A DNA stretch of 64,000 nucleotides from Fimbriosthenelais zetlandica (Eukaryota), in NCBI GenBank assembly GCA_977030845.1, contig OZ365110.1, positions 49,352,001 through 49,416,000 on the forward strand, read 5' to 3'. The position numbers are program-made. Shown here piece by piece: positions 1-9,000 of this stretch. Positions within the stretch are counted from its first letter, which is position 1; every line of letters starts with the position of its first letter.

Positions 1-3000
1 CAGCATGATGTCACAGGGACAGACGCTCACAACAGCATGATTCTACAGGCACAGACGCCCACAACAGCATGATCTCACAGGGACAGACGCCCACAACAGC
101 ATCATTCTACAGGCACAGACGCCCACAACAGCATCATTCTACAGGCACAGACGCCCACAACAGTATCATTCTACAGGCACAGACGCCCACAACAGCATGA
201 TTCTACAGGCACAGACGCCCACAACAGCATGATCTCACAGGGACAGACGCTCACAACAGCATGATCTCAGAGGGACAGACGCCCACAACAGCATGATGTC
301 ACAGGGACAGACGCTCACAACAGCATGATTCTACAGGCACAGACGCCCACAACAGCATGATCTCACAGGGACAGACGCTCACAACAGCATGATTCTACAG
401 GCATAGACGCTCACAACAGCATGATCTCACAGGCACAGACGCCCACAACAGCATGATCTCAGAGGGACAGACGCTCACAACAGCATGATCTCAGAGGGAC
501 AGACGCCCACAACAGCATGATGTCACAGGGACAGACGCTCACAACAGCATGATTCTACAGGCATAGACGCTCACAACAGCATGATTCCACAGGCACAGAC
601 GCCCACAACAGCATGATCTCAGAGGGACAGACGCCCACAACAGCATGATCTCACAGGTACAGACGCCCACAACAGCATGATTTCACAGGGACAGACGCTC
701 ACAACAGCATGATTCTACAGGCATAGACGGTCACAACAGCATGATTCTACAGGCATAGACGCTCACAACAGCATGATCTCACAGGGACAGACGCTCACAA
801 CATCATGATTCCACAGGCACAGACGCCCACAACAGCATGATCTCACAGGGACAGACGCCCACAACAGCATGATCTCACAGGTACAGACGCCCACAACAGC
901 ATGATTTCACAGGGACAGACGCTCACAACAGCATGATTCTACAGGCATAGACGGTCACAACAGCATGATTCTACAGGCATAGACGCTCACAACAGCATGA
1001 TCTCACAGGGACAGACGCTCACAACAGCATGATTCCACAGGCACAGACGCCCACAACAGCATGATCTCACAGGGACAGACGCCCACAACAGCATGATCTC
1101 ACAGGCACAGACGCTCACAACAGCATGATTCTACAGGCATAGACGCCCACAACAGCATGATCTCACAGGGACAGACGCTCACAACAGCATGATTCTACAG
1201 GCATAGACGCTCACAACAGCATGATCTCACAGGGACAGACGCTCACAACAGCATGATTCTACAGGCATAGACGCTCACAACAGCATTATTCTACAGGCAT
1301 AGACGTTCACAACAGCATGATCTCACAGGCATAGACGCTCACAACAGCATGATTCTACAGGCATAGACGCTCACAACAGCATGATCTCACAGGCATAGAC
1401 GCTCACAACAGAATGAACACAACAACATTGCTACCTGTATAACACTGTCATTTATTGTTCGCAATGAAAATAAGCTGTCTGCTTCACCAGGTAATAAAAC
1501 TGAAGCAATGTATCGCCAAAGAAGAACATCAGACAAAATGAAATTAATATTTTTCGGAGAGATTGAAGTGACATCGCTTCCTATTATGCACAATCTTGGG
1601 GGCAAAGTTGACAAGTTGGCTTACATGTATTCTTTTCATCTCATAATAGATAGTATATTACACCTATTATACATTACTTGAAATGTTGAAGCAGACGTTA
1701 CATTCAGGAATCATAAACTTTCGCAATATTTTAATATAAAGACTTGAACTCGACTATACCAAATTTCTTCTACCTGTGAGTAGGTGAAAACCTACCGACT
1801 GTCCCGACTTACCAACAGGTTAAATATAATAATTTAAAAGAAACAATAGGACATGTCAGACCAGCATATAAAATGAAATAGAGAAATGTTAATATTGTCT
1901 TTCCCACAATGCACAGGCAGTAACAACTCTTTGGTAAAATAACTTCTCTTGGAAAGCATTCCCATCAAAATGTTCATGTAATTGTTTTATATCTAAGCGT
2001 TTCTAGTGATTGGCGAACAGTCGAAGCACTTGAATTGATATCTTCTGATCGTAGGTAACAATGGTGAAATATGAGACAAAGGGTAATATTTTCTGGAAGA
2101 ATTAATCCACAAGTGAGCGTCTGTCCCTGTGAGATCATGCTGTTGTGGGCGTCTATGCCTGTAGAATCATGCTGTTGTGAGCGTCTGTCCCTGTGAGATC
2201 ATGCTGTTGTGGGCGTCTGTGCCTGTGAAATCATGCTGTTGTGGGCGTCTGTGCCTGTGAGATCATGCTGTTGTGGGCGTCTGTGCCTGTGGAATCATGC
2301 TGTTGTGAGCGTCTATGCCTGTAGAATCATGCTGTTGTGAGCGTCTGTCCCTGTGAGATCATGCTGTTGTGAGCGTCTATGCCTGTAGAATCATGCTGTT
2401 GTGAGCGTCTGTCCCTGTGAGATCATGCTGTTGTGAGCGTCTATGCCTGTAGAATCATGCTGTTGTGGGCGTCTGTCCCTGTGAGATCATGCTGTTGTGA
2501 GCGTCTATGCCTGTAGAATCATGCTGTTGTGAGCGTCTATGCCTGTGGAATCATGCTGTTGTCAGCGTCTATGCCTGTGGAATCATGCTGTTGTGAGCGT
2601 CTGTCCCTGTGAGATCATGCTGTTGTGAGCGTCTGTCCCTGTGACATCATGCTGTTGTGGGCGTCTGTCCCTGTGAGATCATGCTGTTGTGAGCGTCTGT
2701 CCCTGTGAGATCATGCTGTTGTGGGCGTCTATGCCTGTAGAATCATGCTGTTGTGAGCGTCTGTCCCTGTGAGATCATGCTGTTGTGGGCGTCTGTGCCT
2801 GTGAGATCATGCTGTTGTGGGCGTCTGCGCCTGTGGAATCATGCTGTTGTGAGCGTCTATGCCTGTAGAATCATGCTGTTGTGAGCGTCTGTCCCTGTGA
2901 GATCATGCTGTTGTGGGCGTCTGTGCCTGTAGAATCATGCTGTTGTGAGCGTCTGTCCCTGTGAGATCATGCTGTTGTGGGCGTCTGTGCCTGTAGAATC

Positions 3001-6000: not shown

Positions 6001-9000
6001 GTAGAATCATGCTGTTGTGAGCGTCTGTCCCTGTGAGATCATGCTGTTGTGAGCGTCTATGCCTGTAGAATCATGCTGTTGTGAGCGTCTGTCCCTGTGA
6101 GATCATGCTGTTGTGAGCGTCTATGCCTGTAGAATCATGCTGTTGTGGGCGTCTGTCCCTGTGAGATCATGCTGTTGTGAGCGTCTATGCCTGTAGAATC
6201 ATGCTGTTGTGAGCGTCTATGCCTGTGGAATCATGCTGTTGTCAGCGTCTATGCCTGTGGAATCATGCTGTTGTGAGCGTCTGTCCCTGTGAGATCATGC
6301 TGTTGTGAGCGTCTGTCCCTGTGACATCATGCTGTTGTGGGCGTCTGTGCCTGTGAGATCATGCTGTTGTGAGCGTCTGTCCCTGTGAGATCATGCTGTT
6401 GTGGGCGTCTATGCCTGTAGAATCATGCTGTTGTGAGCGTCTGTCCCTGTGAGATCATGCTGTTGTGGGCGTCTGTGCCTGTGAGATCATGCTGTTGTGG
6501 GCGTCTGCGCCTGTGGAATCATGCTGTTGTGAGCGTCTATGCCTGTAGAATCATGCTGTTGTGAGCGTCTGTCCCTGTGAGATCATGCTGTTGTGGGCGT
6601 CTGTGCCTGTAGAATCATGCTGTTGTGAGCGTCTGTCCCTGTGAGATCATGCTGTTGTGGGCGTCTGTGCCTGTAGAATCATGCTGTTGTGAGCGTCTGT
6701 CCCTGTGACATCATGCTGTTGTGGGCGTCTGTCCCTCTGAGATCATGCTGTTGTGAGCGTCTGTCCCTGTGAGATCATGCTGTTGTGGGCGTCTGTGCCT
6801 GTGAGATCATGCTGTTGTGAGCGTCTATGCCTGTAGAATCATGCTGTTGTGAGCGTCTGTGCCTGTAGAATCATACTGTTGTGAGCGTCTGTGCCTGTGA
6901 GATCATGCTGTTGTGAGCGTCTGTCCCTGTGAAATCATGCTGTTGTGAGCGTCTGTCCCTGTGAGATCATGCTGTTGTGGGCGTCTGTGCCTGTAGAATG
7001 ATGCTGTTGTGGGCGTCTGTGCCTGTGGAATCATGCTGTTGTGAGCGTCTGTCCCTGTGAGATCATGCTGTTGTGGGCGTCTGTGCCTGTAGAATCATGC
7101 TGTTGTGGGCGTCTGTGCCTGTAGAATCATGCTGTTGTGGGCGTCTGTGCCTGTGAAATCATGCTGTTGTGGGCGTCTGTGCCTGTGAGATCATGCTGTT
7201 GTGGGCGTCTGTGCCTGTGGAATCATGCTGTTGTGAGCGTCTATGCCTGTAGAATCATGCTGTTGTGAGCGTCTGTCCCTGTGAGATCATGCTGTTGTGA
7301 GCGTCTGTCCCTGTGAAATCATGCTGTTGTGGGCGTCTGTGCCTGTGGAATCATGCTGTTGTGAGCGTCTATGCCTGTAGAATCATGCTGTTGTGAGCGT
7401 CTGTCCCTGTGAGATCATGCTGTTGTGGGCGTCTGTGCCTGTAGAATCATGCTGTTGTGAGCGTCTGTCCCTGTGACATCATGCTGTTGTGGGCGTCTGT
7501 CCCTCTGAGATCATGCTGTTGTGGGCGTCTGTGCCTGTGGAATCATGCTGTTGTGAGCGTCTATGCCTGTAGAATCATGCTGTTGTGAGCGTCTGTCCCT
7601 GTGAGATCATGCTGTTGTGAGCGTCTGTCCCTGTGAAATCATGCTGTTGTGGGCGTCTGTGCCTGTGGAATCATGCTGTTGTGAGGGTCTATGCCTGTAG
7701 AATCATGCTGTTGTGAGCGTCTGTCCCGGTGAGATCATGCTGTTGTGGGCGTCTGTGCCTGTAGAATCATGCTGTTGTGAGCGTCTGTCCCTGTGACATC
7801 ATGCTGTTGTGGGCGTCTGTCCCTCTGAGATCATGCTGTTGTGAGCGTCTGTCCCTGTGAGATCATGCTGTTGTGGGCGTCTGTGCCTGTGAGATCATGC
7901 TGTTGTGAGCGTCTATGCCTGTAGAATCATGCTGTTGTGAGCGTCTGTGCCTGTAGAATCATGCTGTTGTGAGCGTCTGTGCCTGTGAGATCATGCTGTT
8001 GTGAGCGTCTATGCCTGTAGAATCATGCTGTTGTGAGCGTCTGTGCCTGTAGAATCATGCTGTTGTGAGCGTCTGTGCCTGTGAGATCATGCTGTTGTGA
8101 GCGTCTGTCCCTGTGAAATCATGCTGTTGTGGGCGTCTGTCCCTGTGAGATCATGCTGTTGTGAGCGTCTATGCCTGTAGAATGATGCTGTTGTGAGCGT
8201 CTATGCCTGTGAGATACGCCTACCTAGGCCTACTAGGCCTAGCTGTTGGTAGGGTCTATGCCTGTGCTATTGTGAAGGTCTATGGCCTAGGCCTATGGCT
8301 ATGCCTGTAGAATGATCCTGATCCTTAGTGGTACCGGGTAGCCTAACTTTTTTTCCCTGTTAAAACTCATATTATAGGCCTAGATAGGCCTATTTTCTGC
8401 AATTAGGCCTAGGTTTATCTGAGTAGGCCTATGATTTATATGGCCAATGTTGAAAAATATATTAGGCGTAAGCTTTTAACAAGAATTAGATTTTATGTTA
8501 ACTTTCGGCTTGCCATAGGTGGCTAGTCCGTCGTGATCCGTTCACAAAATTTTGATGCTGTTCTGAGCGTCTCCATTTAGCGGCCCCCTTGATGGCACAG
8601 TGCTGCCACACGTTTGAGGAATTAGAGCTCTCCACTCACTGAAGGTAGGAAGGAAGGCCCACGTGCAACACTACTTCCGGTAGCGTGGTTCTCTTCTCAA
8701 CTCAAGCCTGACGCTGAAGGTAAATATCGACTAAATTCAAATACATTCTACGCCAAACATTTAATTTCCACGTAATATAACATGTTTGGGAAAAGCTGAA
8801 GTTAAATTGCTGAATGCTATATAGAAATTGTGGTGAAATATCGGTATAATTATTAACAATTGGTGACTGGTGTAGGGTGTGGCTGTTGTGCGTCATTGAC
8901 AACAGTGACAGTCAACAGGTAGACCTAGTACAAGATATATTGGCGTTTGGGAACAGGGGCTCATCCCTGACTGACAGGTCGGGTCCCTGGCATTGGTCCC

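What the first reader, a model, noticed from the sequence alone, without database searches (positions are those of the whole stretch)
1..8215. Giant fold-back: two opposite-facing arrays of one 32-bp minisatellite converging on a 701-bp spacer
Seen: the array at 1-1411 and its reverse complement at 2113-8215 face each other across unique sequence (1412-2112), giving at least 1.4 kb of pairable arms. Established: long inverted arms built from short tandem units define Foldback-type elements (Drosophila FB, sea urchin TU), and such palindromes are recombination and cruciform hotspots and can yield dsRNA. Inference: this is either an undescribed foldback-like element or an inversion with a breakpoint inside a minisatellite. 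The spacer ends are not complementary to each other, unlike the inner domains of classical FB elements. It sits about 4.6 kb upstream of the GST start codon.
Basis: partly seen in the sequence, partly recalled or inferred. Interest (0 to 1): 0.65.

Follow-up and report, generated by a model that had tools for sequence, protein, structure and literature searches.

The report
Inverted minisatellite arrays around unique spacer
Two blocks of the same 32-base tandem repeat face each other across 701 unique bases in an animal genome, and the evidence points to an ordinary rearranged repeat array rather than a new kind of mobile element.

Summary
A strictly 32-bp-periodic minisatellite fills 1-1408 on the + strand (44 full units, running off the window). 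It fills 2113-8215 on the - strand (189 full units and two partial ones). A unique, AT-rich, non-coding 701-bp spacer lies between the two blocks.

The arms come from one ancestral array. They share 13 of 29 unit variants, a colinear run of 10 identical units (0 of 1000 shuffles reach it) and a 359-bp exact inverted match. They are not mirror images, and each carries private variants and its own internal duplications. This rules out a fresh palindrome or a fold-back read artefact.

The left array decays into the spacer like a natural array edge. The right array is cut cleanly inside a unit at 2112/2113. I read this as a local inversion with one breakpoint inside the array, followed by ordinary array turnover (confidence about 0.5).

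A foldback-type transposon cannot be excluded. The left outer end lies outside the window and no eukaryotic genome collection was available. The spacer ends are not complementary, no transposase is present, and no second copy occurs in the window.

Inverted satellite subarrays are already described, so novelty and interest are low.

The parts
1..1408 (+). Left arm: 44 full 32-bp units in the CAGCATGAT...CACAA orientation. It runs off the window start, so its outer end is unseen.
   Evidence: It has 19 distinct variants, of which 6 are private (9 of 44 units). It has its own 7-unit (224-bp) internal duplication, visible in the variant string.
1409..1430 (+). Decayed partial unit at the inner edge of the left arm. 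It looks like a natural array boundary.
   Evidence: Read directly. By my own count, the first 13 bases match the unit at 10 of 13 positions, then similarity fades. TRF extends the array to 1416. Units 41, 42 and 44 of 44 are private variants.
1412..2112 (.). 701-bp unique spacer: AT-rich, non-coding, with no terminal complementarity.
   Evidence: GC 0.337. No unit relics. No terminal inverted repeat. No significant match elsewhere in the window, best E 0.39. The 3 ORFs that overlap it have no Pfam family. No Rfam match at E<=1.
2113..8215 (-). Right arm: the same unit on the minus strand. From the inner end outward it holds a 30-nt unit cut at the spacer, 189 full units and a 25-nt partial unit.
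   Evidence: It has 23 variants, of which 10 are private (25 of 189 units). The junction 2112/2113 cuts a unit after position 30 with no decay.
2113..4522 (-). Recent internal duplication in the right arm. A 37-unit (1184-bp) block is repeated, and the copy reaches exactly to the spacer junction.
   Evidence: Exact 1226-bp direct match at a lag of 1184 bp: 4522-3297 equals 3338-2113.
205..563 (+). Longest perfect inverted match between the arms (359 bp). Its partner is 5036-5394 on the minus strand.
   Evidence: It corresponds to the colinear run of 10 identical units, L units 8-17 = R units 89-98, which includes a variant seen once in each arm.
5036..5394 (-). Partner of the 359-bp perfect inverted match.
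8216..8320 (-). Decayed units continuing the right arm outward. This is an old array edge.
   Evidence: An nhmmer profile of unit trimers hits 8231-8319 on the minus strand, E 1.4e-4. A weaker unit-like stretch lies at 8554-8572, E 0.16, not significant.

Best explanation
This is one non-coding 32-bp minisatellite, at least 7.5 kb and at least 234 units, that a local inversion has split into two oppositely oriented blocks. It is probably neutral.

The ancestral order I infer, read in the unit's CAGCATGAT...CACAA direction, is: decayed 5' edge (now about 8320-8216), the present right arm, the present left arm, decayed 3' edge (now 1409-1430), then the present spacer. Inverting the segment 'left arm + spacer' placed the far end of the spacer against a cut inside the array (2112/2113). 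It also turned the left arm to face the right arm.

Since then both arms have evolved by the usual unequal exchange and duplication of blocks. The left arm has 7-unit blocks, and the right arm has a 37-unit block that is still 100% identical. Exchange between the arms may also have occurred. I assign the structure no function.

Shown here: common origin, strict periodicity, non-mirror arms, private variants, and the different character of the two junctions.

Inferred: the direction of the event and which junction is the breakpoint. Also inferred are three possible side effects: a weak tendency to fold back when single-stranded, a hairpin RNA if transcribed, and flipping of the spacer by recombination between the arms.
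For: Same array family in both arms:
- The consensus is identical, 13 of 29 distinct variants are shared, and the same six variable positions occur in both.
- Mean unit identity is 0.887 within the left arm, 0.903 within the right arm and 0.896 between them.

Shared higher-order order, not only shared units:
- There is a colinear run of 10 identical units. None of 1000 unit-order shuffles reach it (maximum 6), and the reversed-order control gives 4.
- There is a 359-bp exact inverted match.

Not a recent copy of the other arm:
- In the spacer-adjacent register identity is 0.917, against 0.896 as the mean of all registers and 0.925 as the best register.
- The left arm's best 44-unit match in the right arm is 0.925. 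Right-arm segments find a non-overlapping match within the right arm with a median of 0.956. Only 1.4% of those 146 segments score as low as 0.925, among them the outermost one sampled.
- Private variants make up 9 of 44 units on the left and 25 of 189 on the right.

The junctions differ:
- The left arm fades into a partial unit, and 3 of its last 4 units are private variants.
- The right arm's outer edge fades over about 3 units.
- The right arm's inner end is an undecayed unit cut at position 30.

No sign of a mobile element:
- The spacer ends are not complementary.
- None of the 142 ORFs of at least 70 aa in the window has a transposase or reverse-transcriptase family.
- No unit, spacer or outer-flank copy occurs in the remaining 55.8 kb.

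Precedent: satellite arrays made of two inversely oriented, unequal subarrays are common in Tribolium freemani. Direction changes in mouse satellites are attributed to inversions (10.1101/2024.12.02.626372, passages read).
Against: - The outer end of the left arm is outside the window. The second breakpoint, which the model needs, was never seen.
- The 'natural versus cut junction' argument rests on a few dozen bases. It also assumes that array edges decay, and a natural array end can be abrupt.
- The alternative inversion, of spacer plus right arm, is less parsimonious but not excluded.
- A 359-bp perfect match between arms that otherwise differ by about 10% could also come from recent exchange between arms, so it does not date the split.
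- I found no microhomology at 2112/2113 by reading the sequence. This fits end joining but proves nothing.
- No reads, no second haplotype and no related genome could be consulted, so the inversion has no direct comparator.
Confidence: 0.5

Rival explanations
1. A foldback-type DNA transposon, in the manner of Drosophila FB, sea urchin TU, Tetris, Galileo or Rehavkus. Its long terminal inverted repeats would be built from the 32-bp unit and greatly expanded, and the 701-bp spacer would be its non-coding middle domain. It would be non-autonomous and moved by a transposase encoded elsewhere.
For: Inverted arms of tandem units around a non-coding middle are the hallmark layout of foldback elements. 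Arm lengths vary between copies, and many copies lack ORFs (PMC4079207, passages read). Repeats held in transposon termini can expand into long satellite arrays, up to 80 kb in Tribolium (10.1101/2024.12.02.626372). The right arm is followed outward by decayed units and by a distinctive stretch with 7 TAGGCCTA palindromes in 210 bp. That stretch could be a terminal 'flanking domain'. In Tetris the flanking domain shares a 37-bp stretch with the repeat unit.
Against: The spacer ends show no inverted complementarity, so there is no inner domain. The window holds no transposase or other mobile-element domain. There is no second copy of the unit, the spacer or the outer flank in the other 55.8 kb. 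The arms, 6.1 kb and at least 1.4 kb, are far longer than the figures I read: up to 1,735 bp for Tetris and 26-400 bp for Rehavkus. The right arm's inner end is a fresh, undecayed cut. Termini, target-site duplication and copy number could not be examined.
Confidence: 0.18
2. An inverted duplication rather than an inversion. A fold-back or template-switch event during replication or break repair copied part of the array backwards across the spacer. The arms were first mirror images, and array turnover has since scrambled them.
For: Fold-back of inverted repeats in single-stranded DNA is a documented route to inverted dimers (PMC10164571, abstract). The arms draw on the same variant pool. The right arm's inner end is demonstrably still expanding, with an exact 37-unit duplication reaching the junction. 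That could have displaced an original mirror register.
Against: The spacer-adjacent register is no better than many others: 0.917 against a best of 0.925 elsewhere. The left arm resembles no present part of the right arm as closely as right-arm segments resemble each other. The two arms end at different phases of the unit and with different degrees of decay. By my reading there is no microhomology at 2112/2113.
Confidence: 0.12
3. An assembly artefact: a chimeric or fold-back read, or a wrong join between two loci that carry the same minisatellite.
For: Long, near-identical tandem arrays are hard to assemble. The left arm runs off the window, so its context is unknown. The 1226-bp exact duplication next to the junction could be an assembly expansion. 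No read data were available.
Against: A fold-back read with a missed adapter gives mirror-image arms with no unique centre. Here the arms are not mirror images and the centre is 701 bp of unique, non-palindromic sequence. A wrong join through a shared repeat would join arrays in the same orientation, not create two array-to-unique junctions. There is no N or gap.
Confidence: 0.08
4. A functional hairpin-RNA or small-RNA locus. Read-through transcription would give a long imperfect hairpin that is diced into small RNAs. This reading is compatible with any of the origins above.
For: A transcript of either strand could pair over 1406 positions with 0.898 Watson-Crick pairs plus 0.033-0.041 G:U pairs. 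It would hold 21 perfect stretches of at least 21 nt, the longest 78 nt. Hairpin-RNA loci that yield endo-siRNAs are known in Drosophila (PMC10317233 and PMC10292708, search listing with the start of each abstract only).
Against: There is no evidence of transcription. A profile of the unit finds no target-like match in the rest of the window, including the GST and Ig-domain exons (the remaining hits have E of at least 3.4). Rfam finds nothing.
Confidence: 0.05

Closest known systems
Satellite arrays with inversely oriented subarrays ('macro-dyad symmetry') in Tribolium freemani TfSat01/TfSat03 (10.1101/2024.12.02.626372, passages read)
   Same: One monomer family forms two facing subarrays several kb long and unequal in length. 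The monomer at the switch point is abruptly truncated.
   Different: In Tribolium the switch holds no extraneous sequence and the predicted loops are 9-27 bp. The same few switch types also recur on many chromosomes in centromeric DNA. Here a 701-bp unique spacer separates the arms, the unit is 32 bp rather than 166 bp, and the locus lies next to genes. Recurrence could not be tested. The supplementary figures of that preprint, which show the switch segments, were not available to me.
Foldback transposons: Tetris of Drosophila virilis (PMC4079207, passages read). FB, TU and Galileo are known to me only from the citations in that paper, from search listings and from memory.
   Same: Long inverted arms containing tandem repeats, a non-coding middle domain, variable arm length, and a link between terminal repeats and satellite expansion.
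   Different: Tetris has a non-repetitive terminal flanking domain, an inner domain, 8-10 bp target-site duplications and many genomic copies. Its arms reach 1,735 bp and its units are about 220 bp. Here the inner domain is absent. The termini, duplication and copy number are unseen. The arms are 6.1 kb and at least 1.4 kb.
Rehavkus elements (PMC6446971, passages; 10.1101/2024.12.02.626372, passages)
   Same: DNA transposons that carry a minisatellite close to their inverted termini. In beetles their repeats can expand into arrays.
   Different: They are defined by a transposase with a PHD finger, a 9-bp target-site duplication and 26-400 bp inverted termini. No such protein domain is present in the window, and the host taxa named in that paper are arthropods and annelids.
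Inverted repeats as fold-back substrates (Alu inverted repeats in yeast; PMC10164571, abstract read)
   Same: Two inverted homologous stretches that can anneal within one strand.
   Different: In those experiments instability falls with spacing and divergence unless long single-stranded DNA is exposed. The present arms (701-bp spacer, 8-10% mismatch) lie on the stable side in duplex DNA, and within the permissive range (heterology up to 25%) in single-stranded DNA.

Membership tests
Foldback-type transposon (FB / TU / Tetris layout) | Long inverted arms that contain tandem repeats | tested here: met
   44 units on + face 190 unit matches on - (189 full units and one truncated), and the arm pieces pair almost end to end in a DNA fold.
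Foldback-type transposon (FB / TU / Tetris layout) | The same non-repetitive terminal (flanking) domain at both outer ends, in inverted orientation | not testable with these tools
   The left arm runs off the window at position 1. Only the right outer flank (8216 onward) is visible.
Foldback-type transposon (FB / TU / Tetris layout) | Target-site duplication flanking the element (8-10 bp in Tetris) | not testable with these tools
   The left terminus is outside the window.
Foldback-type transposon (FB / TU / Tetris layout) | Inner domains of the two arms complementary to each other at the edges of the middle domain (a domain of the Tetris layout) | tested here: not met
   in 1405-2120, with a 7-nt seed, no inverted pair joins the two spacer ends. 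The four pairs found are internal and 10-16 nt long.
Foldback-type transposon (FB / TU / Tetris layout) | Multiple dispersed copies in the genome | tested here: inconclusive
   There is no further copy of the unit, spacer or outer flank in the remaining 55.8 kb of the window. No eukaryotic genome collection could be searched.
Rehavkus / Mutator-like elements | Transposase with DDE domain and PHD finger, 9-bp target-site duplication, minisatellite before the 3' terminal repeat | tested here: not met
   none of the 142 ORFs of at least 70 aa in the window matches a transposase or PHD family. The target-site duplication is unseen. A non-autonomous copy would also lack the protein, so this does not exclude a derivative.
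Satellite array with inverted subarrays (macro-dyad, Tribolium type) | Two inversely oriented subarrays of one monomer family | tested here: met
Satellite array with inverted subarrays (macro-dyad, Tribolium type) | Orientation switch between two truncated monomers with no extraneous sequence (loops 9-27 bp) | tested here: not met
   A 701-bp unique spacer without unit relics lies between the arms.
Satellite array with inverted subarrays (macro-dyad, Tribolium type) | The same switch segment recurring at many arrays or chromosomes | not testable with these tools
   Only one locus is visible.
Hairpin-RNA (endo-siRNA) locus | Transcribed inverted repeat that yields about 21-nt small RNAs with a complementary target gene | not testable with these tools
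   Pairing potential exists. There are no expression data. No target-like match occurs in the window.

The most novel reading that the evidence does not exclude
The locus is one copy of an undescribed foldback-type mobile family in a poorly sampled invertebrate lineage. Its terminal repeats would have expanded to multi-kb 32-bp minisatellite arms, and the TAGGCCTA-rich stretch at 8225-8431 would be part of its terminal domain. Read-through transcripts might feed a hairpin small-RNA pathway.
Probability: 0.15. Interest if true: 0.5.

Novelty: new member of a known kind. Interest (0 to 1): 0.22.

Why it matters
If the inversion reading holds, this is a tidy small example of how a minisatellite array is split and then evolves as two semi-independent arms. 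Each arm gains private variants and private block duplications, and one 359-bp tract stays identical. Such a locus could serve as a structural-variant marker, and it gives a natural test of exchange between inverted tandem arrays. It does not open a new question, because inverted satellite subarrays and foldback elements with repeat-built arms are both described. It would matter more only if genome-wide searches showed a mobile family or small-RNA production.

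Tried and rejected
Searches that gave nothing:
- A search with one GST exon (13877-14026) for longer proteins scored no hit. Seven candidates shared words and none passed. This did not help to name the organism.
- An Ig-domain exon (46227-46631, minus strand) found FGFRL1 proteins as its closest single-domain relatives, at only 50% identity (a fish) and 45% (an abalone). 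The species stays unidentified. No close vertebrate match appeared, and I do not take the window for human.
- Four strings of the unit searched in full text of papers gave 0 papers. 'Not in print' therefore rests on that one search only.
- Rfam at gathering thresholds over the whole window gave 0 matches. Rfam at E<=1 over the spacer gave 0. tRNA scan gave 0.
- The 81-aa GST_C frame had no PDB match. The 50-aa GST exon matched sigma, alpha and mu class GSTs at about 1e-5, so the class is left open.

Ideas considered and rejected:
- Coding repeat. No stop-to-stop frame of at least 90 aa lies inside either array.
- Two independent insertions, in opposite orientation, of an element carrying the minisatellite. 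The sequences next to the two inner array ends are unrelated.
- Microhomology at 2112/2113. The six bases before the junction look like the end of a unit in the left-arm orientation. By my reading they could not have primed synthesis of the right arm, so I treat them as coincidence.

Not done:
- The GST and FGFRL1-like genes were examined exon by exon only.
- No eukaryotic genome, read or small-RNA collection was available.
- Supplementary files of the papers were closed. Those of the Tribolium preprint (switch segments) and of the Tetris paper (copy tables) might bear on the comparison.

Full report
**What is there**

The first 8.2 kb of the window is dominated by one 32-bp tandem repeat.
- Tandem Repeats Finder reports an array at 1-1416 (44.2 copies). 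It reports its reverse complement at 2113-8215, with higher-order periods of 64 and 224 bp.
- The window has no N.
- The periodicity is strict. Every anchor-to-anchor distance is 32 bp: 43 of 43 on the left and 189 of 189 on the right.
- A degenerate unit pattern finds 234 matches where shuffles give none. All 200 listed rows lie in the two arrays. The 34 unlisted rows fit the 34 unit slots 7103-8190, as the unit split implies.
- The left arm holds 44 full units and runs off the window. The right arm holds a 25-nt partial unit at 8191-8215, then 189 full units, then a 30-nt unit cut at 2113.
- Between the arms lie 701 bp (1412-2112). This spacer has GC 0.337 and no unit relics. It has no terminal inverted complementarity, no significant match elsewhere in the window, no Pfam family in its ORFs and no Rfam match.
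- No reading frame of 90 codons or more lies inside the arrays.

The right array does not stop dead at 8215. It fades through about three decayed units to about 8320.

**Are the arms pairable?**

Yes.
- Over 44 units the complementarity is 0.917 in one spacer-adjacent register. It is 0.898 Watson-Crick over 1406 positions in the register that includes the truncated unit.
- Any register that is a multiple of 32 gives about 0.90.
- A DNA fold of 1012-2511 pairs the two 400-nt arm pieces almost completely.

**Do the arms share an origin?**

Yes.
- Both have the same consensus and the same six variable positions. They share 13 of 29 distinct unit variants.
- Mean unit identity is 0.887 within the left arm, 0.903 within the right arm and 0.896 between them.
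- They also share unit order. A run of 10 identical units, including a variant seen once in each arm, is colinear in the unit's own orientation. None of 1000 shuffles of unit order reach it (maximum 6), and a reversed-order control gives 4.
- At nucleotide level this is a 359-bp perfect inverted match, 205-563 against 5394-5036.

**Are the arms a fresh palindrome?**

No.
- The spacer-adjacent register is not special: 0.917, against a best of 0.925 elsewhere and a mean of 0.896.
- The left arm's best 44-unit match anywhere in the right arm is 0.925. Right-arm segments find a non-overlapping match within the right arm with a median of 0.956. Only 1.4% of those 146 segments score as low as 0.925, among them the outermost one sampled.
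- Each arm has private variants: 9 of 44 units on the left and 25 of 189 on the right.
- Each arm has its own block duplications. The left arm has a 7-unit repeat. The right arm has a 37-unit (1184-bp) block whose two copies are identical over 1226 bp and reach exactly to the spacer.

These facts rule out the usual fold-back read artefact, which gives mirror arms and no unique centre. They also argue against a recent inverted duplication.

**The junctions**

- The inner end of the left arm looks like a natural array boundary. Three of its last four units are private variants. After the last full unit comes a partial unit that fades into the spacer (my count is 10 of the first 13 bases).
- The outer end of the right arm also fades.
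- The inner end of the right arm is an undecayed unit, a member of the perfect 37-unit block, cut after position 30.

The simplest history is a single array whose 3' part, together with its flanking 701 bp, was inverted. On that reading 2112/2113 is a breakpoint and 1411/1412 is the original array edge. The second breakpoint would lie at the unseen outer end of the left arm. This is an inference from a few dozen bases and from the general habit of array edges to decay.

**Mechanism and consequences**

I take the structure to be a neutral by-product of rearrangement in a fast-evolving minisatellite. I assign it no function.

[quoted passage not shown] With a 701-bp spacer and 8-10% mismatch, cruciform extrusion in duplex DNA should be weak, while fold-back after resection remains possible.

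The 359-bp perfect tract could support recombination between the arms. That would flip the spacer and move units from one arm to the other. This is inferred, not shown.

A read-through transcript could form a long imperfect hairpin with 21 perfect stretches of at least 21 nt. There is no evidence of transcription, and no target-like match in the window.

**Comparison with known systems**

Foldback transposons share the layout of repeat-built inverted arms around a non-coding middle. Tetris adds a non-repetitive terminal domain, an inner domain, 8-10 bp target-site duplications and many copies (PMC4079207, passages). Here:
- the inner-domain test fails;
- no transposase family is present among the 142 ORFs;
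- no second copy occurs in the other 55.8 kb;
- termini, duplication and copy number could not be tested.

Rehavkus elements carry minisatellites near their termini but are defined by a PHD-finger transposase and a 9-bp duplication (PMC6446971, passages).

The closest described non-mobile analogue is the 'macro-dyad' organisation of Tribolium freemani satellites. There, 71.8% of mapped arrays consist of two inversely oriented, unequal subarrays. Those switch points carry no extraneous sequence and recur genome-wide (10.1101/2024.12.02.626372, passages). The same text notes that direction changes in mouse satellites are attributed to inversions.

I therefore file the locus as a new member of a known kind, an inverted-subarray tandem repeat, and not as a foldback element.

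**Context**

A GST_N exon lies at 13877-14026 and a GST_C exon at 14714-14956. The first ATG of the frame is at 12862, 4647 bp from the array.
- The minus strand from about 19.2 to 46.6 kb carries Ig I-set exons. Their best single-domain relatives are FGFRL1 proteins, at 50% identity to a fish and 45% to an abalone.
- The organism's own proteins were not found in the protein collection, so the species is unknown.
- The window is not taken for human.
- Genes were examined exon by exon. The joined proteins were not built.

**What stayed unchecked**

No eukaryotic genome, read or small-RNA data were available. The questions of mobile family versus single locus, of assembly correctness and of small-RNA production are all open.

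Noticed in passing
window 8225-8431, and 9945, 16898, 20713, 20778, 59475, 59997: The 8-base palindrome TAGGCCTA occurs 13 times in 8216-64000. A first-order Markov model expects 0.78, with a maximum of 5 in 200 simulations. Seven copies sit within 210 bp directly outside the right array. The contexts of the dispersed copies do not look alike. Unexplained; it could be a protein-binding motif or part of a repeat family.
   Followed up: partly
window 2113-4522: A 37-unit (1184-bp) block of the right array is duplicated with 1226 bp of perfect identity, ending exactly at the spacer junction. It is either a very recent expansion or an assembly expansion.
   Followed up: partly
window 19272-46631, minus strand: A multi-exon gene with Ig I-set exons (20313-20588, 22462-22719, 46227-46631). 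It also has an exon encoding a transmembrane stretch and a histidine-rich tail (19272-19802). The best relatives of one Ig exon are FGFRL1 proteins, at 50% identity to a fish and 45% to an abalone. Only single exons were examined.
   Followed up: partly
window 12862-15232, plus strand: A cytosolic GST gene of about six exons. Pfam confirms GST_N and GST_C. The nearest solved structures are sigma, alpha and mu class enzymes at E about 1e-5. One exon found no relative in the large protein collection.
   Followed up: partly
window 10438-10602: Four long homopolymer runs (C, C, G, C; 11-15 bases each) lie within 165 bp. They are followed by a (CTG)n stretch and a possible splice donor near 10848. 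This could be the first exon of an unannotated gene between the array and the GST.
   Followed up: no
window 8546-8730: A unit-like 19-bp stretch lies at 8554-8572 (E 0.16, not significant). A CpG-containing segment that ends in a splice-donor-like GGTAAA follows, about 350-500 bp outside the right array. It may be a promoter or first exon close to the repeat.
   Followed up: no
window 26967-27055 / 36327-36415; 48777-48863 / 53446-53532; 49000-49065 / 53361-53426: Short dispersed repeats: one direct pair (89 nt, 80%) and two inverted pairs (87 nt at 80%, 66 nt at 76%, about 4.3-4.6 kb apart). They are probably copies of small interspersed elements.
   Followed up: no
window 62934-63109 and 46758-46836: Other small tandem repeats: a 50-bp unit in 3.8 copies, and an (AGAT)n microsatellite. 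Nothing else in the window comes near the size of the 32-bp arrays.
   Followed up: no
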